This document shows positions 1,097-32,000 of a stretch of 32,000 nucleotides of DNA, in pieces (the stretch's first letter is position 1; every line of letters starts with the position of its first letter). The notes under the pieces were generated by a model that had not been told where the DNA came from, ran no database searches, and was given only the letters and a program-made list of their open reading frames with translations. The stretch covers positions 1 to 32,000 of the forward strand of contig JBMSAQ010000022.1 of assembly GCA_049414405.1 (NCBI GenBank). The letters are read 5' to 3'. Both the position numbers and the translations under genes were made by a program. This DNA comes from Candidatus Nanopusillus sp. GTDB lineage: Archaea > Nanobdellota > Nanobdellia > Nanobdellales > Nanobdellaceae.

Positions 1097-1366
1097 TTAT
1101 TGATTAGAATTTAATACTTTTATTTTTTCCCTTACTTTTTCCTTTAATAAATTTTCTAAGCATTTATGACATAAATACCCCCCATACTTTCTGCTAATCC
1201 TCTTTTGCGATAAGTTTAATCTTCTATATCTTGAAGGATGCAATGATGGCAATCCTTGTAATCTTCTTCCACATATTGCACATCTTGGTATATTTCCTTT
1301 CTTTAATTTGACAATTACTGATATTTTACCAGAGGGTGTTTTTCTGATTAAATATGTCTTAGCCAT
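1097..1366 (-). CDS. rpl34e: 50S ribosomal protein L34e (eL34)
   Basis: TPSGK...PRCAICGRRLQG...RISRKYGGYLCHKCL matches the L34e zinc-ribbon signature. The spacer to L14e is only 2 nt. Confidence 0.9.
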   Translation of the reverse strand: MAKTYLIRKTPSGKISVIVKLKKGNIPRCAICGRRLQGLPSLHPSRYRRLNLSQKRISRKYGGYLCHKCLENLLKEKVREKIKVLNSNQ

Positions 1367-1982
1367 TTTTATTATCTATTTTAGATTTTTTTATAAATCT
1401 TGAGTAAATAATGTTATATACTAATAAAGAAATTTGCACTAGAATATACAATACTATATATAAGAGTAAAGGATTCAACCAATTTATATTTATTATTGGT
1501 AAATAAAATGGTAAAGTGTTTGTTATAACGTTTACAGATAATAATTCTGGTTCATATGTTCCGTTTAAAGTTATTATATTGTAGTTTGCACGATAAAAAC
1601 CTAGAAAACTATTATTATAATATATAGCAAAATCTTGATTATATAATATTGGATTTGTTATTAATATACTTGTTGTATTATTTATATTTGTAATATAAAA
1701 TCCTGATTGAAAAGCAAAAATAATAAAAATTAAAACAAAAATTCCAAATATAGTAATAATTATTATGTATTTCATTATTTTTGAATATATTTTAGTAACT
1801 TCCCCCATAATACTATTTAATTCTTCTAATTTTCCAGATTTAAAACTTTCAATATATCTTTTTTGTATCTCTTGCAATTTTTTTTGATGCTCTCTTATTC
1901 CAAGCTTCTTTTCAATTATTTTTATTACTATGGTTACTAATATAACTAAAAAAAGTACATAGAAGAATAGCGTGTTCATCAT
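1359..1982 (-). CDS. membrane protein, probable DUF106/EMC3-like (archaeal YidC/Oxa1-like) insertase
   Basis: Predicted topology is TM1, then a Lys/Glu-rich coiled coil (HQKKLQEIQKRYIESFKSGKLEEL), then TM2 and TM3. It occupies the conserved slot between secY and rpl34e that the DUF106 protein holds in other archaea. An unusual Asn/Tyr-rich loop lies between TM2 and TM3. Confidence 0.45.
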   Translation of the reverse strand: MMNTLFFYVLFLVILVTIVIKIIEKKLGIREHQKKLQEIQKRYIESFKSGKLEELNSIMGEVTKIYSKIMKYIIIITIFGIFVLIFIIFAFQSGFYITNINNTTSILITNPILYNQDFAIYYNNSFLGFYRANYNIITLNGTYEPELLSVNVITNTLPFYLPIININWLNPLLLYIVLYILVQISLLVYNIIYSRFIKKSKIDNKNG

Positions 1983-3334
1983 TTTAGATATTTTCCAATT
2001 AATGGTATTAAATATAACGCATCTGCCCTCTTCAAGTCGTTATATATTTGTCCAGCTATTACTATTAATAGCAATATACTCACCCCAGATATTGCAGAAC
2101 TTAATATATCACTCAAAGATGCTAATAATCCCATTAAAAATCCAGACAAATATCCTATAGGATCTATATATTTTCTTAACATATCTTCTACAATTCTTGG
2201 ATCTCTTGTATATAATGGGGAATTTGGGTTACTTGTTAAATAATTTGCTAAATTTTTTGGATCTAAACCCGTAGAATATATCCAAAATTTAGATATTAGC
2301 ATTCCACCAACTGCAAATAATAAAAAGTAGAATATCACATGAAATATATTGAACGGGACGTATAAATATTCAATTCCAAATAGTCCGATATTTATTATTA
2401 AGTTTGGTGGGGATAATAATTGTACAATTGGATTATTAGGATCAAATCCAAATAAAGATTGTAATTGAATTATTAATGCATAAATAAATATTGCGGGAAT
2501 AACAGAGGTATATAATAATTGTATTGGATATTTAATAATTTCCCCGTTAATGTTTAGATATAATAATGGAACATCTATTTTTAGTGATTGTAAATATACT
2601 GCAAATATTAAAATTCCAATAGTAATAATTGCAGCAAATAAAAATGCAAGACCTAAATTAATATTTCCTTGAGATAAATATAAAATTCCTTCTGGTATGT
2701 ATCCTGTTGGTTGTGTAAACAGACCTGTTGAAGCAGATGGTGGGGAAAGAGGATTAAATAGTCTTAGAACTAATGCAATACTTATTGTAGTTAAAATAAT
2801 AACATTAATTCCAGATGTAATTCCATACTTATATGAAAAATCATCTAATAATAATATAATGATACCACCAATAAATAATTGTAAAAATAAAATAATGTAC
2901 AAAATTATTGGATCTATTCCTAGAAATGTGTTTGGCGATATATTTCCACTGGCGATTAAAATAATACTTTCTATTATAATAAATGTTAATGCAATAAATC
3001 TTGCATAATTGTCAAATTTGGTTTTTCCTTCATCAGTACTTATGTCAATATTTATTATCCTAAGACCAACTAGCAATTGCATAAAAATTCCAGCAATTAC
3101 TATTGGAGCGATTCCTACACTTGCCAAAGTTCCTAAATTAGATCCAAATAACCATAAAAGTTGTTCAAGTCTTGTAGAAACTTCTGGAGACATTCCAAAT
3201 AAAGGTATTGATGCTAGAACAGTATATAATGCAATTACTAATAATGTATTGTATACCCTTTCTCTTAAAGATAATGTTTTTTTTGGTTCTTCGACGGATG
3301 GTAAGTATGAGACTACTTTATCTATTGTGTTCAT
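1979..3334 (-). CDS. secY: preprotein translocase subunit SecY
   Basis: 451 aa with about 10 TM segments. The N-terminal region LRERVYNTLLVIALYTVLASIPLFGM and the overall pattern are typical of archaeal SecY/Sec61alpha. Confidence 0.93.
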   Translation of the reverse strand: MNTIDKVVSYLPSVEEPKKTLSLRERVYNTLLVIALYTVLASIPLFGMSPEVSTRLEQLLWLFGSNLGTLASVGIAPIVIAGIFMQLLVGLRIINIDISTDEGKTKFDNYARFIALTFIIIESIILIASGNISPNTFLGIDPIILYIILFLQLFIGGIIILLLDDFSYKYGITSGINVIILTTISIALVLRLFNPLSPPSASTGLFTQPTGYIPEGILYLSQGNINLGLAFLFAAIITIGILIFAVYLQSLKIDVPLLYLNINGEIIKYPIQLLYTSVIPAIFIYALIIQLQSLFGFDPNNPIVQLLSPPNLIINIGLFGIEYLYVPFNIFHVIFYFLLFAVGGMLISKFWIYSTGLDPKNLANYLTSNPNSPLYTRDPRIVEDMLRKYIDPIGYLSGFLMGLLASLSDILSSAISGVSILLLIVIAGQIYNDLKRADALYLIPLIGKYLK

Positions 3335-5444: not shown

Positions 5445-7127
5445 TTAATAATTTAACATATTGAATGTTTTTTTAAATGTCATATATGTTTTCCATGCAG
5501 TATCTATTGTCTTTTCTTTTGTTTCTTCTATTATTAATTTTCTTTCTTCTTCAATACTTTTTCTTTTTATATTTTTTTCAATATTTGATAAATCCCTACC
5601 AAAAGTTGATATAACTTTAAGTAACCACATTATAATATTTCCTAAAGTTGGAAATATTAATGAAATACTGGATTCTTTTTTTTCTTCCTTCTTTTCCTCT
5701 TTTTTATCTTCTTTTTTTTCTTTTTCTTCGCTATCAAGATATTTTTTTATCCATGCGATACTTGATAATGATCTTTTTATTCTCCCATCTTTTTCTAACT
5801 CTTCTATAAGTTCTCTTGTCCATCTTATTTTATAAGGATCATTTCTTATTTCTTCTGGTTTTGCATCAGATTTTTCAGCAACTATTTTTAATAGTTTTTC
5901 ATCGCTTTTTATTATATCGTATAAAAATACTTCTAGAATTAAGCCAGACATACTTTTTATATAATCATCTGTTAATCCTGTTATATATGCCAAATCTTCA
6001 CTTTCTTGATTTATTATTATAGAATCATATTCTTCTTTTTCAACTAAATATGCTCTAATTACTATATCTATCCTTCCTAGGAAAGAATACATTCTTGCAT
6101 ACGTATCCGTTCTCCCAACCACAGTGGGTATCGCTCTAGTTTTCATATTTATTTCATATAACGGTATGTAATATTTTTCTATTTCTTTTCCTTCTTTTTC
6201 ATCATATTCTTTTACTTTTACCTCTTTTTGATTTGCTATTAATGAAATATTTATAATTGCCGTTTCAAATGCATTTACAACATCTACAGGTTGATCTGGA
6301 TTTTGCAATAATTTTCTTGCAAATTTAAAATATGGTTTTGCAAATTCAACATAATATAATAGAGAGCTCAATTCATGTTTTAAATAAGATTTTAATAAGA
6401 TTATTCTATCATACAAAACTTTTTTATTATTTTCAAGCCAACTATAAAAGTCTATTAATCTACTACTTAATAAATTATATATTCTTCTATTTATTATTCC
6501 ATTATTAAATAATTCATTTAAATCTCTTGGAGTAGTGTTTGCTTGATCATTAAATAATTTATTATATAATTCTTGACCTATTAATTTTTTATTCTTAAAT
6601 TTTTCAAGTTCAGATTTCAGATCTGCTAGAAAAAATAGATCTACAATACTTGGAAACCTTGATGTTTGTAAGTTAATTAAAGCACCCGTACCTCTTTTAT
6701 AATCAACATTAGATAACCACCTCTCTTTTAGTGATAAATAACTTACAAGAGCCTCTTCGGAATTTTTTGATAATAAATTTTCGTATAATACATATACTGA
6801 ATAGAGTTGTTTATATTCATTCAAAATAGAAATAATTGTTCTTGTCAATGCATTAATTAATTCTGCCAACGATCTTGCATTATTTAATACGTTTGTTAAC
6901 CTTTGTCCCATATCTCCAAAAAATGAAGATCCGACGGATGATGTAAAATCATCAGATAATTTATTAATATCCATCTTTAAACTATCTCTAATAAAATCTA
7001 CAAGCCAAAAATATATTTGTTCCATCCTTATATTTGGATTATCTAATATAAGTTTTATTTCTAATATTTTATGTTTATTGTCTTCAATCTTTTCATTTCT
7101 TAGATCATCAATTTTTATATTTTTCAT
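5445..7127 (-). CDS. hypothetical protein, 560 aa, mostly helical, with Lys/Glu-rich linker and C-terminal hydrophobic helix
   Basis: Long clean ORF lying 23 nt upstream of the TIM-barrel gene on the same strand. I recognise no family. The tract EEKEKKEDKKEEKKEEKKE (aa ~466-485) is followed by SSISLIFPTLGNIIMWLLKVISTFG. Confidence 0.7.
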   Translation of the reverse strand: MKNIKIDDLRNEKIEDNKHKILEIKLILDNPNIRMEQIYFWLVDFIRDSLKMDINKLSDDFTSSVGSSFFGDMGQRLTNVLNNARSLAELINALTRTIISILNEYKQLYSVYVLYENLLSKNSEEALVSYLSLKERWLSNVDYKRGTGALINLQTSRFPSIVDLFFLADLKSELEKFKNKKLIGQELYNKLFNDQANTTPRDLNELFNNGIINRRIYNLLSSRLIDFYSWLENNKKVLYDRIILLKSYLKHELSSLLYYVEFAKPYFKFARKLLQNPDQPVDVVNAFETAIINISLIANQKEVKVKEYDEKEGKEIEKYYIPLYEINMKTRAIPTVVGRTDTYARMYSFLGRIDIVIRAYLVEKEEYDSIIINQESEDLAYITGLTDDYIKSMSGLILEVFLYDIIKSDEKLLKIVAEKSDAKPEEIRNDPYKIRWTRELIEELEKDGRIKRSLSSIAWIKKYLDSEEKEKKEDKKEEKKEEKKESSISLIFPTLGNIIMWLLKVISTFGRDLSNIEKNIKRKSIEEERKLIIEETKEKTIDTAWKTYMTFKKTFNMLNY

Positions 7128-7191: not shown

Positions 7192-7734
7192 ATGAAAATG
7201 AATTTAATAATATTATCAAGTAGAGGGTTTGATGAAGACGATCTTTTTAACTTTTTAGATATATTGGATGGTAGAACATATATTGCTATAAGAAATAGAA
7301 AAATTGGAATAGGAAAATATAAAAGTAAAGTATTACCAGATTTTGATATACATGAAATATTCTTAATGAGAGAAAATCATTTTGATAGGTTGATATATAT
7401 TTCTGATGAAGGATATAAAGAATTTTTAAACGTAGAATCTCAAGCTATATTTACAAGATTTATAAATTCATACAGGACGGTTATATTATCTTCTTTATCA
7501 CAAATAGCATTTTTAAAATCCGGATTATTAGCTGGAAGAACAATAACATATAATTATGATGAATATCCACAATATTTAAAATTATTTCCAGATTTTGGTG
7601 TGAAATTGGTAACAAATGCAGATTATGTAGTAGATAGAAATCTAATAACTGTAAAGGGTAGAGACTCTATATATTCTTTAGGTGAAAAATTGAAAGATAT
7701 AGAAGAAGAATTAAGAAAAATTAGTAATATGTAA
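7192..7734 (+). CDS. DJ-1/PfpI-family-like protein lacking the nucleophile Cys
   Basis: By-eye alignment to PfpI: [15 protein letters not shown] aligns with VLFLTANEFEDVEL, and [26 protein letters not shown] with [39 protein letters not shown] aligns with VVVDGNWVSSR. The Cys-His dyad positions are Ser-Leu. Confidence 0.5.
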   Translation: [180 protein letters not shown]

Positions 7735-8313
7735 ATTATATTTACGTAATTCCTCATTAATATAATAAAATCCAATAAATGATAATATTAATAGTAATGG
7801 AAATGTAGATCCAATTATGGATATTCTAAAGTATTTATTTATATTTTGATTCTTTAAATGAACAACAATATTATATAATTTTTTTAGTATTAAATAATTT
7901 GATACTCCAATGATTATTAGCCCAAGATATGTAATAAAAATGGATATGAGTATTCCTATATATATCATTGAAAATAAATTATTTGGATAATATTCTCCAT
8001 TTATCATTTTTTCAATTATCCTAAATATCTTCTTTAAGTATTCTATAGATAAAAAATATGAAATAATAGAAATAATAATTAATATAATTAAAATTGCTCC
8101 AGGAGTAATTAAATTAAGGGAAATATACAGTATTGATAAAGATAATGATGGGCTAAATATTAGTGTAAATGGACTCATAGTACTATTATATGTAGAAAAA
8201 AAGGATAGAATTACAAATAATAAATATGATGAAAAACCTAAAATACTAGATATGTATGTAATTTTAGAATAACTATTTAAACTATTTATGAACTCTGATA
8301 AATTTTCATTCAT
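7711..8313 (-). CDS. hypothetical integral membrane protein
   Basis: 200 aa with 5-6 hydrophobic segments and no recognised family. It converges on the DJ-1-like gene with a 24-nt overlap. Confidence 0.55.
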   Translation of the reverse strand: MNENLSEFINSLNSYSKITYISSILGFSSYLLFVILSFFSTYNSTMSPFTLIFSPSLSLSILYISLNLITPGAILIILIIISIISYFLSIEYLKKIFRIIEKMINGEYYPNNLFSMIYIGILISIFITYLGLIIIGVSNYLILKKLYNIVVHLKNQNINKYFRISIIGSTFPLLLILSFIGFYYINEELRKYNLHITNFS

Positions 8314-20368: not shown

Positions 20369-20742
20369 TGAACAAATTATTAAAATTAAGAAAAATAATT
20401 AAGAGGAAAAAACCAGATTATCTTAGATTTCAGTGGTGGAAAGTAATAAAATTGAGAAACAAAAAAGAATCTTGGAGAAGACCAAGGGGTATACATAATA
20501 AGGTAGGGAAAAAATTGAAAAGTAGAGTTTCTATGGTGGAAGTTGGATATGGTTCTCCTAAAGAAGTGAAAGGGTTATTACCAAATGGTAAGAAACCTGT
20601 ATTAGTACATAATGTAGAAGAATTAGAAAAAATAGATAAAGAAAAAGAATGTGCAATAATTGCTTCTAGTGTTGGAAAAAGAAAAAGAGAACAAATAATA
20701 AATAGGGCAAAAGAACTAAATATTGAAATTTTTAATATCTAA
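20365..20742 (+). CDS. rpl32e: 50S ribosomal protein L32e (eL32)
   Basis: SWRRPRGIHNKVGKK and GYGSPKEVKGLLPNG are L32e signatures. It overlaps rpl6 by ATGA. Confidence 0.92.
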   Translation: MMNKLLKLRKIIKRKKPDYLRFQWWKVIKLRNKKESWRRPRGIHNKVGKKLKSRVSMVEVGYGSPKEVKGLLPNGKKPVLVHNVEELEKIDKEKECAIIASSVGKRKREQIINRAKELNIEIFNI

Positions 20743-21281
20743 TGTTTGTATAATTTGAAGTAATCTAGTATAAAATTTCTTATTTTTTCAGAACTATTAT
20801 ACAAATCTCTTCCAGATATATCTATTAATTTCTTTTTTCCTCTGACTTTTTCTAGATTAGATTTCATTGAACTTAGCACATTTGAAAAACCCAACCTTAA
20901 TAAAATTTTTTCAATTCTATTAGCTTTATTTATATCGAAATCTTTAAATTCTTCTACATTATGAAAACTTTCTATACTTACATCCAAATCGCCAACAGAT
21001 GTATTTATGTTATAAGCATTAATTATTATTGTTAGCTCAATTTTCCAATTAATTTTCGGTTCTTCTTTCCAATAATTTTTATAAGCTTCCCATTTGGCTT
21101 CTACAAACAACAAACCTTCTGGAGTTAATCTATGAAAATAGTATTTTTCATATCTATCTTTTTTAAATATTCCTTCCCATTCATTGCTTTCAAGAAATTT
21201 TTTGAATTTTTCATAAAAATCTTGCGGAATAAATTTTATTTTTGATTTTACTCTCGCTTTATATATTGTTTCCCAAGTCAT
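20739..21281 (-). CDS. hypothetical protein (possible paralogue of upstream neighbour)
   Basis: 180-aa ORF whose start overlaps the stop of the 161-aa ORF by 4 nt. I recognise no family. Confidence 0.55.
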   Translation of the reverse strand: MTWETIYKARVKSKIKFIPQDFYEKFKKFLESNEWEGIFKKDRYEKYYFHRLTPEGLLFVEAKWEAYKNYWKEEPKINWKIELTIIINAYNINTSVGDLDVSIESFHNVEEFKDFDINKANRIEKILLRLGFSNVLSSMKSNLEKVRGKKKLIDISGRDLYNSSEKIRNFILDYFKLYKH

Positions 21282-21763
21282 AATTTAAATGATGCTGTAA
21301 AGTCTTTTGCTAAATCTAGAAAATCATCTGCAATTTTTCCAACATTTTTTTTATGATCTTTTAATTCACTGTCATATAAATATTTTTCAAATAATCCTCT
21401 AAGAAATATATTAAATGGTTTATCTCCAAAATATTTCTGATAATCTGTTATTAGATCTCCATTTATTTTTATATTTAAATTTTCTGCATATTGTTTCATA
21501 TTGTCAATTAATTTTAAACTGTCTACGCTAATACTTATATCATAACTATATGTTACATAGTCGGTTATTTTCTTTTCTGTGTGCCACTCTAAATTTATAG
21601 ATCTAGAACCATCATCTTTTACCTTTTCTTCATGTTTATTTTCAAGGAAGTCAAATCCTTTATTATCCCAAAATTCTTTCAATGATTTATAGAATTTTTG
21701 AAAATCAATTAGTCCAGTATACGAGAATGTTTTACCATCAACAATTCTTTCCTTTGGTGGCAT
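21278..21763 (-). CDS. hypothetical protein
   Basis: 161-aa ORF and first gene of a two-gene unit. I recognise no family. Confidence 0.55.
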   Translation of the reverse strand: MPPKERIVDGKTFSYTGLIDFQKFYKSLKEFWDNKGFDFLENKHEEKVKDDGSRSINLEWHTEKKITDYVTYSYDISISVDSLKLIDNMKQYAENLNIKINGDLITDYQKYFGDKPFNIFLRGLFEKYLYDSELKDHKKNVGKIADDFLDLAKDFTASFKL

Positions 21764-27972: not shown

Positions 27973-28482
27973 ATGGTATCTGTAAGAGATGTGAATGGTC
28001 AGATGCTTGTAGAAAGATTAGCTAGATATTTATTTGAAAATTATAGAGATATAATAAAACCACCTAGCTGGGCATTTTTTATTAAAACAGGACCGGATAA
28101 GGAGAGAAATCCAGATTTTCCTCCAGATGTAGATTATGATGGTGGACCTGGATGGTGGTATTATAGAGCAGCATCGATTTTAAGAAAAGTATATTTATAT
28201 GGACCTATTGGGGTTTCTAGATTGAGAAGAAAATATTCTGGATTAAGAAAAAGAGGAATGGAACCTGGAAAGGTTGTAAGAGGATATGGAAAACTAATAA
28301 GAGAAATATTACATCAATTAGAAAATGCAGGATTAGTTATGGAAATAACTGAAGGAAAGAAAAAGGGAAGAGTTGTAACGAATAATGGAAGAAGTTTATT
28401 AGATAAATTGGCCAATGAAATATATAAAGAATTAAATGACGAAAATAAGAATTTAATTAATTATATAAAATCTGTTTCATGA
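27973..28482 (+). CDS. rps19e: 30S ribosomal protein S19e (eS19)
   Basis: VRDVNGQMLVERLARYL...PPSWAFFIKTG...WWYYRAASILRKVYLYGPIGVSRLRRKYSG matches eS19. I placed the start at ATG 27973; the track start at 27964 is a TTG. Confidence 0.92.
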   Translation: MVSVRDVNGQMLVERLARYLFENYRDIIKPPSWAFFIKTGPDKERNPDFPPDVDYDGGPGWWYYRAASILRKVYLYGPIGVSRLRRKYSGLRKRGMEPGKVVRGYGKLIREILHQLENAGLVMEITEGKKKGRVVTNNGRSLLDKLANEIYKELNDENKNLINYIKSVS

Positions 28483-28949
28483 AAAGTATAAGCTTATGGG
28501 TTGAATTTTTGATATATACAGCATTTGCTATTTCTATACTTTCTTTTGTAATATACTTTGTTCATTTAACAGCTCAAAATAAACAAGATGAATTAAACCT
28601 AAAATATATTATAAATTTATTGACAAATTTGAACTATCAAATAGAAACAATTGGATCTTGTTATTCATGTAATTATAAAGTTTTTGAAAATTTACCACCA
28701 AAAACAACCATATATATTTATCAGGGAAAAATAATGTGTATATATTATTCTACTGCAAATTATTCTCTACAAGTTCCCCCATATATAGATTTAAATATAA
28801 CTAAATTATCCCCAAATAATTATAAATATAATTTTACTATTAATACAATCCCATTTAATTTATTAAATGGATCCAACCTTACAATTACAAATAATCTATG
28901 TTTATTATTAGATAAAAATCAATCAGGTCTATATATTGGTTTATGTTAA
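28479..28949 (+). CDS. putative secreted/pilin-like protein with class III (prepilin-like) signal peptide
   Basis: N-terminus MKS|ISLWVEFLIYTAFAISILSFVIYFV. The mature part is Asn/Tyr/Cys-rich with NYS, NIT, NFT, NGS, NLT and NQS sequons. The start overlaps the rps19e stop (ATGA). Confidence 0.45.
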   Translation: MKSISLWVEFLIYTAFAISILSFVIYFVHLTAQNKQDELNLKYIINLLTNLNYQIETIGSCYSCNYKVFENLPPKTTIYIYQGKIMCIYYSTANYSLQVPPYIDLNITKLSPNNYKYNFTINTIPFNLLNGSNLTITNNLCLLLDKNQSGLYIGLC

Positions 28950-29386
28950 ATACAAAAGAAATTAATATAATAACTATTGGAACTACTTACATTATAACAA
29001 AAACAAATCCAATCTGGAGGATTATATAAAATAAAGTTTTCATTACAATATTTTAGTATACTTTTATTTACAATAAAATATCCATTAAAATAATAGCAAC
29101 AATTTATATTATTTCCAGTACATTCTTGGATAAATAAATTATATGAAGATATACAAATGAAAGAAAAATTATAATTAATATATTTTGTGTAATTCTGAAA
29201 ATGTAATGTATAATTAGATATGTAGATGTATCCAAAGTTTTGATATATGTATATTATTTGATCTTTAAAATTTTTTCCTATTAAATTCGGATTAATGTTA
29301 TCTATTGGGGAAGGATTATAATATGTAATGAAAGATAAAATAATAATAATTATAATTGTTGCTAATAATATATATTGAGATCTCAT
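28946..29386 (-). CDS. putative secreted/pilin-like protein, Cys/Asn/Tyr-rich
   Basis: N-terminus MRS|QYILLATIIIIIILSF. I count 9 Cys by eye, and there are very few Lys or Glu. It is the last gene of a 4-nt-overlapping minus-strand operon. Confidence 0.45.
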   Translation of the reverse strand: MRSQYILLATIIIIIILSFITYYNPSPIDNINPNLIGKNFKDQIIYIYQNFGYIYISNYTLHFQNYTKYINYNFSFICISSYNLFIQECTGNNINCCYYFNGYFIVNKSILKYCNENFILYNPPDWICFCYNVSSSNSYYINFFCI

Positions 29387-29703
29387 TTAAATATAATTAG
29401 TATATATGGATCAAAATAATCTTGGCCAGCATATAAATATTCAAATACCGGTCTATAATTTTGTATATATGTAGAATCTACATGTTTTCCAAAATAACAT
29501 ACTGTAATACTATTATTTGTTAAGTTTATTATCTTATATACATATAGATTATTGTTGCATGAAGAATTTAAGTAAATTAAATTATTAGGATCAAAAGTAT
29601 AAATATTGTAATTATTATATTTACTATAATAAGTATATAAAAAGAAAAATGTTAATATTGTTATTGAAAATGCTAATTCGACCATAATTATCCAACCTCT
29701 CAT
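29383..29703 (-). CDS. putative pilin-like protein
   Basis: N-terminus MRG|WIIMVELAFSITILTFFFLY. It is 106 aa, Asn/Tyr-rich, with two Cys. Confidence 0.45.
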   Translation of the reverse strand: MRGWIIMVELAFSITILTFFFLYTYYSKYNNYNIYTFDPNNLIYLNSSCNNNLYVYKIINLTNNSITVCYFGKHVDSTYIQNYRPVFEYLYAGQDYFDPYILIIFK

Positions 29704-31925
29704 TTTATATATATTATTAATTGATCTTTATATAATGCATTTATTATCGTATTATTTAATACATATATATTAAAGCTTTCAGAATATCTGTAATTATTCA
29801 CAATATTCCCTACGTATACTGTACCGTTAAATATTGTTATATTTAAATTATTAAAATAAAAATATACATCTTGATAGTTTTTAGATATATTAATTAAATT
29901 ATTTAAATTAATTACATTTATTGGTTCAATATAATTTATTTTGATATATGGAATTTGGGTAGAAAATGCTAAATATAATGCTGTTTGTCCATCTAAATTT
30001 GGGTTTGAATATAGATAAAAATAATAATTTAGATAACTATATTTATAATTTAATGTTGCATTTGTGAAATAAAGATTATTATAGTAGTCATACGATGAAA
30101 CATAAGAAATATTTATTATAGGATTATAATTTGTGTATAATATAGAATTTAAGTGTCCTGAACAAATAAAAGTTTGTGTGTAGCATCTTCTTAATATTAT
30201 ACCATTTTTATATTCATGATATAGATATCCATTATATAAATCGTCTAGATCAAATATCTTATTATAAATGTTTGTAGATTTTAAAATAAATCCATATTTG
30301 GGTTGAAAAGTGTTCCAAAATATCATATTATTTGAATAATAATATTTTTGCGTATTAAATATATACCAATAAGTGTTAGAAAATATTATATTCTTTATTG
30401 ATAAATTTGTAGAATTATATAAATACAATAAAGCTAATGAGGCATTATAAATATAGGGAGTTAAATTATAAGGTCCATATTCAGAAGTATAAAATGAAAA
30501 TCCAACTTTAATATATGAAAGAAGGTTTGTAGAATAAGTTGTTGGAATGGAATAATAGCTTCTATTATACATACCTGTTATGTAAGAAAAATATGCTAAA
30601 TTATTATTATATATTGCAAGATTATTATAAGAATTTGGTAATGAAATTTTTCCCTTATCTAGATCGTTATATTGAGAAAAATCATAAGTTATATTTGGAC
30701 CTATAATAAATTTATAATTTTTAGTTAAATTTGGTTGATAAATTATTCTTGTATTTGGTATTACATTATATGGAATTAAATTTATATAATATGCATTAAT
30801 ATTTTGACCAGATACTTGTAACTTAACCTTGTCCCCATCATTATAACAATAATAAACATATAAAGAATCTGAATTTCTAGAAGATTGTAGAGTTATATTA
30901 CAATTATTTCCCAATTGCATATAGGCATTATTAGATGGTATTAAATTTTGAATATTGTTTTGAATATTAAATAATATTAAATAATTGCCTTTTGGAATTC
31001 TATTATTATAAGTAATTGTAAAGGTATTATATCGTATGCAAAAATTACCGTAATATAGAGAACAAGAATAAATATTATTTCCCGGATTCATATATGAAAC
31101 ATTTATAGGAGTATCATTTCTCCAATATTGGCTGAATTGTTGATAACTTTGATAACTAAAATTATCATATACTAGGAATATTCTTTTTCCATCAATTGAA
31201 TAAATACTTATTTCATTTATCGGAGAAATATTTAATATTATATAGCCATATGAAGATATATTTAAACCAACCCAAATTCCATAGGCACCATTATTAAAGC
31301 TATCACAATTTAGATTATTGTTTAAATAACAAAAATAATAATTATTTTCATTTAAATCTTTTACAGATAAATTGTAACCATTTTGTAGCCAATAAAGTAT
31401 AACAGTAGAAGTTATGAATACAGGATAATTGATTAAATTTTGGTTTGATGGATTTGAAACATTTATTAAAACATATTGGGGTTGACTATTATCTATATTA
31501 AAATTTAGAAAATTTGCATAAAAAAACACCCCGACATTTGGATCTAGATATGTATTATTTGTATTATTTAATACCCCAGAATACTTTGTTAAAAAAGATA
31601 TATTCAATGGGTAATAAATTGGAAATGATGTACAAAAATCTTTGTATGCATTTTTATAAATTAAATCGTCATATATTGGAGAATTTGGTAAGCATTGATA
31701 ATACATAGATAAAGGTATTGAAACATTTAGAGATAACAAATAATATTTGGTTTTGATAGAATTCATTATATCATTTATATAATTATTATAATAGTTTATT
31801 TGATTATAATTACTAATATTGTTTATTAAATATCCTTTATAAACTGTTAAATAAAATGTTAAAAATGAAATAAAAATTACAATGGCAATTATACCCTCTA
31901 CTTCTTTTATTATCCCTCTAACCAT
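29700..31925 (-). CDS. large (741 aa) Asn/Tyr-rich putative surface protein with prepilin-like N-terminus
   Basis: N-terminus MVRG|IIKEVEGIIAIVIFISFLTFYL. I count roughly 26 N-x-S/T sequons by eye and about a dozen Cys. It is strongly depleted in Lys and Glu relative to its neighbours. Confidence 0.55.
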   Translation of the reverse strand: MVRGIIKEVEGIIAIVIFISFLTFYLTVYKGYLINNISNYNQINYYNNYINDIMNSIKTKYYLLSLNVSIPLSMYYQCLPNSPIYDDLIYKNAYKDFCTSFPIYYPLNISFLTKYSGVLNNTNNTYLDPNVGVFFYANFLNFNIDNSQPQYVLINVSNPSNQNLINYPVFITSTVILYWLQNGYNLSVKDLNENNYYFCYLNNNLNCDSFNNGAYGIWVGLNISSYGYIILNISPINEISIYSIDGKRIFLVYDNFSYQSYQQFSQYWRNDTPINVSYMNPGNNIYSCSLYYGNFCIRYNTFTITYNNRIPKGNYLILFNIQNNIQNLIPSNNAYMQLGNNCNITLQSSRNSDSLYVYYCYNDGDKVKLQVSGQNINAYYINLIPYNVIPNTRIIYQPNLTKNYKFIIGPNITYDFSQYNDLDKGKISLPNSYNNLAIYNNNLAYFSYITGMYNRSYYSIPTTYSTNLLSYIKVGFSFYTSEYGPYNLTPYIYNASLALLYLYNSTNLSIKNIIFSNTYWYIFNTQKYYYSNNMIFWNTFQPKYGFILKSTNIYNKIFDLDDLYNGYLYHEYKNGIILRRCYTQTFICSGHLNSILYTNYNPIINISYVSSYDYYNNLYFTNATLNYKYSYLNYYFYLYSNPNLDGQTALYLAFSTQIPYIKINYIEPINVINLNNLINISKNYQDVYFYFNNLNITIFNGTVYVGNIVNNYRYSESFNIYVLNNTIINALYKDQLIIYIK

Positions 31926-31999
31926 AACCTCTTTCTAATTAAAGTTGGATCTGAACCCCCATGCCAAGAAACCCTAGGTTTCATTTGAACAGGATATAT
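31910..31999 (-). CDS. 3' end of an ORF entering from the right window edge
   Basis: The minus-strand frame is open from 31999 to TAA at 31912-31910 (..IYPVQMKPRVSWHGGSDPTLIRKRLWLEG*). It overlaps the start of the 741-aa gene by 16 nt. Its identity is unknown. Confidence 0.3.
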   Translation of the reverse strand: MYPVQMKPRVSWHGGSDPTLIRKRLWLEG

Positions 32000-32000
32000 T

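What the first reader, a model, noticed from the sequence alone, without database searches (positions are those of the whole stretch)
28479..31999. Convergent cluster of four (possibly five) Asn/Tyr/Cys-rich proteins with prepilin-like N-termini: candidate surface fibre / host-attachment module
Seen in sequence: all four ORFs start with a 2-4 residue basic N-terminus that runs straight into a ~20-residue hydrophobic helix. The N-termini are MKS|ISLWVEFLIYTAFAISIL (28479-28949, +) and MRS|QYILLATIIIIIILSF (28946-29386, -). The other two are MRG|WIIMVELAFSITILTFFF (29383-29703, -) and MVRG|IIKEVEGIIAIVIFISFL (29700-31925, -). Three of them carry a Glu 4-6 residues after the putative cleavage point. 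This is the layout of archaeal class III (type IV prepilin-like) signal peptides: [K/R]-[G/A/S] followed by a hydrophobic stretch, as in the QxSxEF-type pilins of methanogens. The mature parts are depleted in Lys and Glu, which dominate every cytoplasmic protein in this window. They are enriched in Asn, Tyr, Cys and N-x-S/T sequons, so they look extracellular and glycosylated. The three minus-strand genes overlap by 4 nt each, and a further ORF running off the right edge overlaps the start of the 741-aa gene. The plus-strand member is translationally coupled (ATGA) to rps19e. Inference: this is a set of pilin or minor-pilin proteins plus a large tip or adhesin protein. The rest of the gene content suggests a reduced, host-dependent archaeon, and in such an organism this would be the prime candidate for a cell-cell attachment apparatus. 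I recognise no family-level homology for any member.
Basis: partly seen in the sequence, partly recalled or inferred. Interest (0 to 1): 0.8.

Follow-up and report, generated by a model that had tools for sequence, protein, structure and literature searches.

The report
Nanoarchaeal pilin-like adhesin gene cluster
Four neighbouring genes of a tiny host-dependent hot-spring archaeon (Nanopusillus) most likely encode small type IV pilin-like proteins plus a large tip-adhesin-like protein, which may be the pilus subunits that earlier surveys of nanoarchaeal genomes could not find.

Summary
Four real genes lie at 28479-31925 and are under purifying selection. Each encodes a short basic N-terminus, one hydrophobic helix and an Asn/Tyr/Cys-rich, sequon-enriched ectodomain. 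The genes overlap as described. The "possible fifth" ORF is not a member; it is the C-terminus of a cytosolic HerA/FtsK-type (DUF87) ATPase.

Residues 153-256 are a DUF2341 domain (hhalign 98.7%, E 4e-16). That domain marks the predicted tip adhesins of archaeal type IV pilus loci. AlphaFold gives this protein a 56-residue N-terminal helix followed by beta-sheet, which is a pilin-like layout.

In sister nanoarchaeal lineages the same cluster abuts PilB/FlaI-type and TadC-type genes, or an archaellin-type gene paired with a second DUF2341 gene. Proteins with p156-like N-termini sit directly upstream of PilB-type ATPase genes there.

Caveats:
- Three of the four proteins fail the FlaFind pattern.
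- The proposed -1 residue is not always G/A/S.
- No prepilin peptidase is annotated in N. acidilobi.
- None of the four proteins was detected in the published N. acidilobi proteome.
- N. equitans lacks the family.

Verdict: a lineage-specific member of a known kind, a type IV pilus minor-pilin/adhesin module. Confidence is about 0.6. A host-attachment role is plausible but untested.

The parts
28479..28949 (+). p156: a 156-aa pilin-like protein. It has the leader M-K-S, then an ISLWVEFLIYT core whose residues S5-T14 are invariant across lineages, then one TM helix. Four Cys are conserved (C61, C64, C141, C156). It is translationally coupled (ATGA) to rps19e.
   Evidence: ORF. Alignment A1, with invariant residues 5-14. 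ATGA junction. dN/dS 0.12-0.29. The N-terminus resembles proteins encoded directly upstream of T2SSE genes in L025 and L034. The AF2 model is poor (pLDDT 43; helix 2-60 then strands).
28946..29386 (-). p146: a 146-aa pilin-like protein. The N-terminus is M-[KR]-[ST]-Q-Y-I-L followed by a TM helix, with no Glu. Eight Cys are invariant.
   Evidence: The MKSQ N-terminus is kept even in the distant L012 homologue. dN/dS about 0.2.
29383..29703 (-). p106: a 106-aa pilin-like protein. The N-terminus is M-R-[GSN]-W-I-I-x-V-E followed by a TM helix. E9 is invariant and two Cys are conserved.
   Evidence: dN/dS 0.18-0.31.
29700..31925 (-). The 741-aa large protein. It has an N-terminal pilin-like helix, a conserved head with a DUF2341 domain, and a variable beta-rich C-terminal region. 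It is the predicted adhesin of the set.
   Evidence: 54 homologues, all Nanopusillaceae, YN1 or Nanoclepta. AF2 model: pLDDT 65 overall, residues 1-250 confident. Profile search of 1.84 billion representatives. 26 sequons. dN/dS is 0.17 for residues 1-260 and 0.33 for the rest.
31755..31925 (-). Residues 1-57 of the large protein. AlphaFold predicts one continuous alpha-helix (residues 2-57). The hydrophobic core is IIAIVIFISFLTFYL. E10-G/A11 is conserved and is the only FlaFind-type site.
31158..31469 (-). DUF2341 (PF10102) domain, residues 153-256 of the large protein. It includes the conserved FCY...C Cys pair (C199, C207).
   Evidence: hhalign of A7 against the DUF2341 alignment A8: probability 98.7%, E 4e-16. 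All ten distant hits of the profile search that were scanned (10 of P0197-P0212) carry Pfam DUF2341. Family member P0188 passes the Pfam gathering score for PF10102.
29703..31157 (-). Variable C-terminal region of the large protein (residues 257-741). It is beta-sandwich-rich, partly modelled at low confidence, and the fastest-evolving part. Its length varies: the whole protein is 528-755 aa among full-length relatives.
   Evidence: Foldseek gave only weak jelly-roll or lectin-like matches (TM about 0.1), which are not interpretable.
31910..32000 (-). C-terminal 29 codons plus the stop of a 432-439-aa DUF87/HerA-FtsK-superfamily ATPase (arCOG00284 in N. acidilobi). It overlaps the start of the large gene by 16 nt. 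This is context, and possibly a partner.

Best explanation
The cluster is a Nanopusillaceae-specific set of type IV pilin-like proteins. Three are small 'minor-pilin-like' subunits (p106, p146, p156). The fourth is a large DUF2341-domain protein that is the equivalent of the predicted tip adhesins of archaeal type IV pilus loci.

Shown:
- All four are conserved genes under purifying selection.
- Each has a 3-4-residue basic leader (up to 11 residues if the large protein is cut at G11) that runs straight into a very conserved hydrophobic N-terminal helix. In three of the four that helix carries a Glu at precursor position 8-10.
- Each has a disulfide- and sequon-rich ectodomain.
- The large protein has a 56-residue N-terminal helix plus a beta head, and a bona fide DUF2341 domain.

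Inferred:
- The proteins insert N-in/C-out by their N-terminal helix.
- They may be trimmed by a class III signal peptidase that has not yet been identified.
- They are lifted out of the membrane by the PilB/FlaI-type ATPase and TadC/FlaJ-type platform proteins. Those are encoded elsewhere in the Nanopusillus genome but next to the cluster in a sister lineage.
- Their helices bundle into a short fibre or a priming/tip complex. This displays the variable, glycosylated C-terminal region of the 741-aa protein for adhesion, plausibly to the host cell surface.
For: - Anatomy and composition.
- N-terminal conservation: the N-terminal 25 residues are the best-conserved part in three of the four proteins. 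The leader varies in length and sequence (MKS, MKG, MRD, MKKN) in front of a conserved [IV]SL[WF][VI]EFLIYT core. This is the pattern expected of a removable leader.
- DUF2341 domain. Makarova et al. 2016 describe large DUF2341 proteins in archaeal T4P loci as predicted tip adhesins flanked by several minor pilins. A DUF2341 gene lies inside the M. maripaludis epd pilus cluster.
- Structure: AF2 predicts helix 2-57 then sheet, with pLDDT about 80-90 for residues 50-250.
- Neighbourhood in L012: DUF87 ATPase, large homologue, p106-like and p146-like genes are followed directly by two T2SSF genes and one T2SSE gene.
- Neighbourhood in L025: a PF01917 archaellin-type gene (MKG|IASV...) and a second DUF2341 gene are transcribed divergently from the cluster. 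A 171-aa protein with a p156-like N-terminus (MKSINLYLEY) and a 56-aa protein (MKATISLE) precede a T2SSE gene 8.5 kb away.
- Neighbourhood in L034: the order is a 169-aa gene (RFQSLFLEY), a 96-aa gene (MRGQLLLE, FlaFind-positive), T2SSE, then a gene fragment I read as T2SSF-like by position only; no T2SSF similarity was detected in L034.
- Machinery in Nanopusillus: N. acidilobi encodes a T2SSF protein and a T2SSE-type ATPase (arCOG01818, detected by proteomics) plus archaellum genes. Published work reports two T4P systems and four TadC homologues in these organisms. It also reports that the pilins for one clade of nanoarchaeal T4P ATPases could not be identified.
- Evolutionary rate: the four genes evolve much faster than the adjacent ATPase, and the adhesin's C-terminal region is the fastest part.
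Against: - No Pfam, NCBIfam or PDB sequence hit to any pilin, archaellin or class III signal family for any of the four proteins.
p106, p146 and p156 fail it.
- The putative -1 residue is D, N, T or I in some lineages.
- Glu is at +6 rather than +5 for most of the proteins, and p146 has none.
- No prepilin peptidase is annotated in N. acidilobi. None was found in two nanoarchaea by Makarova et al..
- In Nanopusillus itself no T2SSE or T2SSF gene lies within 10 kb of the cluster.
- The AF2 model of p156 is unusable. No fold match to a pilin could be obtained, because only whole-chain Foldseek was available.
- The four N. acidilobi orthologues (Nps_02805-02820) were not detected in the proteome.
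- The co-transcribed ATPase is of the HerA/FtsK type, not the PilB type.
Confidence: 0.6

Rival explanations
1. The four proteins are ordinary signal-anchored (type II, uncleaved) surface glycoproteins. They form a membrane-bound envelope or host-contact complex that has nothing to do with type IV filament assembly. The DUF2341 and beta-sandwich region would act as a cell-surface lectin or adhesin held directly on the membrane.
For: - Three of the four fail FlaFind, and the -1 residue is not strictly G/A/S.
- There are no pilin-family hits.
- No prepilin peptidase is annotated in N. acidilobi.
- No T4P genes lie nearby in Nanopusillus.
- DUF2341 also occurs in large exoproteins outside pilus loci, with LamG, PKD or CARDB domains.
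- Other small proteins with an N-terminal TM helix and Asn/Tyr/Cys-rich sequence exist in the genome, for example the 97-aa ORF beside ftsZ. The composition alone is therefore generic for secreted proteins of this organism.
Against: - The N-terminal helix is the most conserved part, with an invariant Glu. That is unusual for a mere anchor.
- The AF2 helix of 56 residues extends about 30 residues beyond the membrane span.
- Neighbourhood links to T2SSE/T2SSF and PF01917 genes recur in two sister lineages. Similar N-termini also head T2SSE operons.
Confidence: 0.22
2. The unit is a HerA/FtsK-type ATPase-driven apparatus. The arCOG00284 ATPase, the large protein, p106 and p146 would work together as a VirB4/Ced-, Zot- or T7SS-like export or uptake device. 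The ATPase would energise assembly or substrate transfer across the symbiont membrane. PilB-type machinery would play no part.
For: - The four-gene unit (ATPase, large gene, p106-like, p146-like) keeps overlapping or abutting stop and start codons in lineages whose flanking genes are completely different (L012 against Nanopusillus, Nanoclepta and L025).
- The ATPase gives weak matches to Zot, EssC/EccC, CedD and FtsK-like models.
Against: - The ATPase has no TM segment.
- It is conserved at 45-50% identity in Woesearchaeota and other DPANN. In all three loci examined there it stands alone among housekeeping genes with no pilin-like neighbours.
- Compact nanoarchaeal genomes couple unrelated genes, as with p156 and rps19e.
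- None of the membrane proteins resembles VirB2, VirB3, VirB6 or CedA (single TM helices only).
- It evolves under far stronger constraint than its neighbours.
Confidence: 0.1
3. The small proteins are divergent archaellum accessory proteins (ArlF/ArlG-like) belonging to the Nanopusillus archaellum rather than to an adhesive pilus.
For: Nanopusillus and Nanoclepta have archaellum genes scattered rather than in a single operon. ArlF and ArlG are small proteins with an N-terminal TM helix.
Against: None of the four hits PF01917, whereas a true PF01917 protein in L025 is readily detected. FlaD/E, FlaF, FlaG, FlaH, FlaI and FlaJ have already been identified in Nst1, and FlaI, FlaH and FlaD/E are annotated in N. 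acidilobi. A DUF2341 partner is typical of adhesive pilus loci, not archaella.
Confidence: 0.04

Closest known systems
Large DUF2341 proteins (arCOG03508 and relatives) with accompanying minor pilins in euryarchaeal/DPANN 'system 1' type IV pilus loci, e.g. the Methanococcus maripaludis epd cluster
   Same: A large secreted protein carries a DUF2341 domain and is encoded beside several small proteins that have short basic leaders and hydrophobic N-termini. The predicted role is tip adhesin plus minor pilins.
   Different: In this window the module is separate from the ATPase and platform genes and from any prepilin peptidase gene. The small proteins match no pilin arCOG or Pfam model. The DUF2341 domain is too divergent for Pfam to call directly in the window protein. 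A HerA-type ATPase is co-transcribed with the module.
Bacterial minor-pilin priming/tip complexes with a large adhesin (FimU-PilVWX + PilY1 of type IVa pili; GspH-I-J-K of type II secretion)
   Same: The logic is the same: about four non-homologous pilin-like proteins share only the N-terminal helix, one member is large, and one lacks the conserved Glu (here p146). Such a complex caps and primes a fibre.
   Different: There is no sequence or demonstrated fold similarity. PilY1 itself is not a pilin, whereas here the large protein carries the pilin-like helix. The comparison is an analogy, not membership.
Crenarchaeal/nanoarchaeal subsystem 4A type IV filament loci (two platform proteins, one ATPase, a pilin and often a PilY-like adhesin)
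   Same: The L012 neighbourhood has two T2SSF genes and one T2SSE gene next to the cluster. That matches the published description of subsystem 4A / system 1 loci in some Nanoarchaeota and DPANN.
   Different: I did not classify the ATPase phylogenetically. The pilin arCOGs named for subsystem 4A (arCOG11238, arCOG06117) were not tested.
HerA/FtsK-superfamily ATPases (HerA, VirB4/CedB, Zot, EssC)
   Same: The upstream ATPase passes the Pfam gathering score for DUF87 (HerA central domain). It matches HerA-family C-terminal regions in solved structures.
   Different: It is about 435 aa and falls far below every curated NCBIfam cut-off. It belongs to arCOG00284, which is distinct from the canonical HerA arCOG00280 also present in N. 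acidilobi. No NurA partner was seen.

Membership tests
Type IV pilin-like proteins (archaeal class III signal peptide substrates) | A short, positively charged leader immediately followed by a hydrophobic stretch of about 20 residues at the extreme N-terminus | tested here: met
   All four proteins, in nearly every lineage, start M-[KR]-x or M-V-R-G and then run into a single hydrophobic segment within the first 6 residues. The L012 p106-like protein (MLQ...) is the exception.
Type IV pilin-like proteins (archaeal class III signal peptide substrates) | A cleavage motif with G/A (or S) at -1, matching the FlaFind pattern [KRDE][GA][ALIFQMVED][ILMVTAS]x3 | tested here: inconclusive
   My regex implementation matches only the large protein, at E10-G/A11|[IVL]IAI, in 7 of 9 lineages. 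p106, p146 and p156 fail it. Residue 3 is G/S in most lineages but D, N, T or I in some. SignalP 6 and the real FlaFind were not available.
Type IV pilin-like proteins (archaeal class III signal peptide substrates) | Sequence match to pilin, archaellin or class III signal models (PF07790, PF04021, PF01917) or to solved pilins | tested here: not met
   No hit at E<=1 in Pfam or NCBIfam. No hit in PDB profile searches.
Type IV pilin-like proteins (archaeal class III signal peptide substrates) | The 'lollipop' fold: a long N-terminal alpha-helix (about 50 residues) packed on a beta-sheet head | tested here: inconclusive
   In the large protein AF2 predicts helix 2-57 then strands, with good confidence for residues 50-250. 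In p156 the same layout appears, but at pLDDT 43. No pilin fold match was obtainable. p106 and p146 were not modelled.
Type IV pilin-like proteins (archaeal class III signal peptide substrates) | Genomic association with a PilB/FlaI-type ATPase and a TadC/FlaJ-type platform protein | tested here: met
   The association is not seen in the window or within 10 kb in Nanopusillus. The cluster is directly adjacent to these genes in L012. Similar N-termini head T2SSE operons in L025 and L034. Such genes exist elsewhere in N. acidilobi.
Type IV pilin-like proteins (archaeal class III signal peptide substrates) | Processing by an A24-family prepilin peptidase present in the genome | not testable with these tools
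   I could not scan a whole Nanopusillus genome. The published N. acidilobi gene list has no prepilin peptidase entry. Makarova et al. found none in two nanoarchaea.
DUF2341 (PF10102) domain proteins | Significant profile match to the DUF2341 domain, including its motifs (NPN..L..YQV; FCYE..GEC; IWVKVP.IPA; VF.FYDDF) | tested here: met
   hhalign gives probability 98.7% and E 4e-16 over residues 153-256. A reciprocal HMM search finds only DUF2341 proteins outside the family. Homologue P0188 scores 24.5 bits against the gathering score of 23.4. The window protein alone is below Pfam detection.
HerA/FtsK-superfamily ATPase (upstream gene) | DUF87/HerA central P-loop domain above the Pfam gathering score | tested here: met
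   PF01935 scores 42-44 bits against a cut-off of 23.2. There are matches to HerA C-terminal regions in the PDB.
PilB/FlaI (T2SSE) secretion ATPase (upstream gene) | Match to PF00437 or to PilB/GspE/FlaI family models | tested here: not met
   No PF00437 hit. There are only chance-level P-loop matches to GspE and PilT (E 0.03-0.9).

The most novel reading that the evidence does not exclude
The HerA/FtsK-type ATPase (arCOG00284) is a dedicated partner of the pilin-like/DUF2341 module. The four-gene unit (ATPase, adhesin, p106, p146) has stayed fused through rearrangements that changed everything around it, in organisms where no prepilin peptidase can be recognised. If the link is functional, terrestrial Nanoarchaeota build or regulate a pilin-like host-contact structure with a non-PilB motor. 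That would be a hybrid between type IV filament subunits and an FtsK/HerA (Zot/VirB4-like) pump, possibly tied to the uptake of host material.
Probability: 0.13. Interest if true: 0.8.

Novelty: new member of a known kind. Interest (0 to 1): 0.5.

Why it matters
Nanoarchaeota live attached to other archaea and take nearly all their building blocks from them, yet the molecules that make the contact are unknown. Earlier censuses reported type IV pilus ATPases and platform proteins in nanoarchaea. They also reported that the pilins for one clade of those ATPases could not be identified. Population data singled out single-TM 'hypothetical external' proteins as fast-evolving.

This cluster supplies concrete candidates: Nps_02805-02820 in N. 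acidilobi and Nst1_318-321 in Nst1. They comprise a DUF2341 adhesin-like protein with a pilin-type helix and three companion subunits. The cluster is conserved in the three cultivated terrestrial nanoarchaeal lineages examined (Nanopusillus, Nanoclepta and strain YN1) and absent from N. equitans; Nanobdella was not recovered. The candidates can be tested directly by antibody labelling, filament proteomics and cryo-ET. The finding extends a known kind of system rather than revealing a new one.

Tried and rejected
- **Exact-sequence lookup.** Lookup of the window's 741-aa protein failed. The window differs by about two residues from the JGI contigs L001 and L002.
- **Family libraries.** Pfam, NCBIfam and PHROGs scans of the four proteins gave nothing meaningful.
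- **Paralogy among the four.** hhalign finds only N-terminal TM similarity between them. p156 against the T2SSE-linked 171/169-aa proteins aligns over the first 20 residues only (E 0.008).
- **PDB profile searches.** Searches with the families' alignments (A1-A4) and the DUF2341 alignment (A8) gave no pilin or other informative hit.
- **p156 structure.** The permitted shallow alignment gave pLDDT 43.
- **S-layer protein idea.** I consider this unlikely, because Nps_02805 is undetected in a proteome where abundant envelope proteins would be expected.
- **Candidate peptidase in the window.** The 4-TM ORF at 7711-8313 has no GxGD-type motif.
- **Pilin-like neighbours of the ATPase in Woesearchaeota.** None were found.
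- **Search for N. equitans or wider homologues of the large protein.** None were found beyond the Nanopusillaceae-related lineages.

Full report
**Source and setting.**
The window is about 25% G+C. Its genes match Candidatus Nanopusillus (Nanoarchaeota, Nanopusillaceae). The 741-aa protein has 54 database relatives, and every one that carries a source name is from Nanopusillus, Nanobsidianus, Nanopusillaceae MAGs, strain YN1 or Nanoclepta. Near-identical JGI hot-spring contigs (L001, L002) and an NCBI MAG (L003) carry the same locus.

- Each protein has exactly one hydrophobic segment, at the extreme N-terminus.
- K+E is 5-8%, against mostly 15-31% in the window's soluble proteins.
- Asn is 12-17% and Tyr 10-15%. 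Cys counts are 5, 8, 2 and 10.
- Sequons (6, 5, 3, 26) exceed composition-preserving shuffles by z = 1.9-3.0.
- The 4-nt overlaps, the ATGA junction with rps19e and the overlapping convergent stops are all present.
- dN/dS against two relatives is 0.12-0.31, so these are real proteins under constraint.
- The order ATPase, large gene, p106, p146, then convergent p156-rps19e recurs in every Nanopusillaceae, YN1 and Nanoclepta locus fetched that spans it. The small-protein lengths 106/146/156 are kept in almost all of them.

1. The ORF that runs off the right edge is not a fifth member. It is the last 29 codons of a 432-439-aa cytosolic ATPase.
   - It has a DUF87/HerA central domain (42-44 bits against a cut-off of 23.2) and HerA-like C-terminal matches.
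   - It is not a PilB/FlaI-type ATPase.
2. The large protein does have family-level homology.
   - A profile of the family was searched against 1.84 billion representative proteins. It found its own lineage and then a tail of unrelated-length proteins matching only profile positions about 150-260.
   - All ten of those that I scanned carry Pfam DUF2341 at the matching place.
   - Profile-profile comparison of the family with an alignment of those domains gives 98.7% probability, E 4e-16, over residues 153-256.
   - One full-length family member (P0188) passes Pfam's own gathering score for PF10102.

**Why DUF2341 matters.**
- Makarova, Koonin and Albers (2016) found large DUF2341 proteins in archaeal type IV pilus loci.
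  - They predicted them to be tip adhesins, by analogy with PilY1.
- The M. maripaludis epd pilus cluster contains such a gene, and transposon hits in it abolish transformation.
- The window's arrangement of one large DUF2341 protein plus three small proteins with basic-leader, hydrophobic N-termini follows this published pattern.

**Structure.**
- AlphaFold2 with a 31-sequence alignment gives the large protein a mean pLDDT of 65.
  - Residues 1-250 are mostly modelled at 77-91: a single helix from residue 2 to 57, followed by a beta-sheet domain.
  - That matches the pilin 'long helix plus head' layout.
- The rest of the protein is beta-rich and partly unreliable.
- p156 modelled poorly (pLDDT 43), although the same helix-then-strands layout appeared.

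**N-termini.**
- Across lineages the first 25 residues are the best-conserved part of the large protein, p106 and p156. Against Nanoclepta, for example, they are 72%, 52% and 56% identical, compared with 28%, 30% and 26% for the rest.
- In p156 the leader varies (MKS, MKG, MRD, MKKN) in front of a conserved [IV]SL[WF][VI]EFLIYT core. p106 keeps E9, and p146 keeps MKSQ in nearly all lineages (MKTQ in Nanoclepta), including the most distant one. A variable leader before a fixed mature end is what a cleaved leader would look like.
- The evidence is mixed, however.
  - Residue 3 is D, N, T or I in some lineages.
  - The Glu is mostly at +6 rather than +5.

**Neighbourhoods in relatives give the strongest support.**
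- L012 is a 30%-GC nanoarchaeal MAG whose ATPase is 67% identical.
  - The same unit (DUF87 ATPase, a 541-aa homologue of the large protein, a p106-like 92-aa gene and a p146-like 130-aa gene) is followed immediately by two T2SSF (TadC/FlaJ) genes and a T2SSE (PilB/FlaI) gene.
- L025 is another Nanopusillaceae MAG.
  - A PF01917 archaellin-type gene (MKG|IASVISY..., FlaFind-positive) and a second DUF2341 gene are transcribed divergently from the cluster.
  - 8.5 kb away, a 171-aa protein beginning MKSINLYLEYIF and a 56-aa protein beginning MKATISLE directly precede a T2SSE gene.
- L034 has the order: a 169-aa gene (RFQSLFLEYIL), a 96-aa gene (MRGQLLLEQ, FlaFind-positive), T2SSE, then a gene fragment I read as T2SSF-like by position only. 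The tblastn screen found no T2SSF similarity in L034.
- N-termini of the p156 type therefore belong to proteins that sit in PilB-type ATPase operons.
- In Nanopusillus itself no such gene lies within 10 kb.
  - The N. acidilobi gene list does include a T2SSF protein next to a T2SSE-type ATPase (arCOG01818, detected by proteomics) and archaellum genes.
  - The literature reports two T4P systems and four TadC homologues in these organisms. It also states that the pilins for one clade of nanoarchaeal T4P ATPases could not be identified.

**Evidence that keeps confidence moderate.**
- No prepilin peptidase is annotated in N. acidilobi, whereas its host has one. Makarova et al. also found none in two nanoarchaea.
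- The four orthologues, Nps_02805, 02810, 02815 and 02820 (each listed with one TM), have no proteomic signal. That is weak evidence, because glycosylated membrane proteins are hard to detect.
- N. equitans has no detectable homologue. Whatever the cluster does is therefore not universal to nanoarchaeal symbiosis.

**The ATPase.**
- It has thousands of relatives. It is 45-50% identical over its full length to proteins of Woesearchaeota and other DPANN.
- In all three loci examined there it sits alone among housekeeping genes with no pilin-like neighbour.
- It evolves far more slowly than its neighbours (dN/dS 0.02-0.10).
- In N. acidilobi it is arCOG00284. This is distinct from the canonical HerA (arCOG00280), which is also present.
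- These points suggest a general cellular ATPase that is merely co-transcribed, just as p156 is coupled to rps19e.
- Yet the unit ATPase-large-p106-p146 stays fused in L012, where every flanking gene differs. A functional link therefore cannot be excluded. I carry it as the novel reading, at about 13%.

**Conclusion.**
The most likely reading (about 0.6) is a lineage-specific type IV pilin-like module. It comprises three minor-pilin-like subunits and a DUF2341 adhesin that carries its own pilin-type helix. It is assembled by PilB/TadC-type machinery encoded elsewhere in the genome. It presents a fast-evolving, glycosylated C-terminal region, plausibly for host adhesion.

The main rival (about 0.2) is an uncleaved, signal-anchored surface glycoprotein complex unrelated to filament assembly. 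The finding is a new member of a known kind. Its value is that it supplies named, testable candidates for pilus subunits not yet identified in terrestrial Nanoarchaeota.

Noticed in passing
window 31910-32000 (-); full gene in L001:8697-10016, L003:8718-10016: A DUF87/HerA-FtsK-superfamily ATPase (arCOG00284 in N. acidilobi) is 45-50% identical across Nanoarchaeota, Woesearchaeota and other DPANN. It matches no curated family and has no solved relative over its N-terminal half. It stays fused to the pilin-like operon in three divergent nanoarchaeal lineages but stands alone elsewhere.
   Followed up: partly
L001:691-984 (+), next to ftsZ; outside the window: Another small (97-98 aa), conserved protein with an N-terminal TM helix and Asn/Tyr/Cys-rich sequence (MKLESTFPMIILPALIIAAS...). 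It is encoded divergently from ftsZ in the Nanopusillus, YN1, Nanopusillaceae-MAG and Nanoclepta loci examined. It may be a further pilin-like or surface protein.
   Followed up: no
window 28479-28482: The pilin-like gene p156 is translationally coupled (ATGA) to ribosomal protein S19e in most lineages examined (the two genes are about 60 nt apart in L025). This odd pairing may give it high constitutive expression, or may simply reflect genome compaction.
   Followed up: partly
window 1359-3334 (-): secY (1979-3334) overlaps by 4 nt a downstream 207-aa three-TM gene that has only a chance-level Pfam hit. It may be the divergent archaeal YidC homologue that Makarova et al. 2015 describe next to secY.
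   Followed up: no
window 7711-8313 (-) and 5445-7127 (-): A 200-aa four-TM protein and a 560-aa protein have no Pfam match. The four-TM protein has no GxGD motif, so it is not an obvious prepilin peptidase.
   Followed up: partly
window 20739-21763 (-): Two overlapping genes of 180 and 161 aa have no Pfam family. They are conserved as a pair between the Toprim and rpL32e genes in every related locus fetched.
   Followed up: no
P0203: One of the distant DUF2341 matches to the large protein's profile is a 653-aa protein of Ignicoccus hospitalis with two matched DUF2341 stretches. I. hospitalis is the host of Nanoarchaeum equitans, and N. equitans itself lacks the family.
   Followed up: no
L025:6009-7852 (-): In one Nanopusillaceae MAG, a PF01917 archaellin-type gene and a second, Pfam-detectable DUF2341 gene occupy the space upstream of the ATPase. 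In the window's lineage that space (about 760 bp in L001:7937-8696) holds no called gene, which may be a remnant of a lost pilin/adhesin pair.
   Followed up: no
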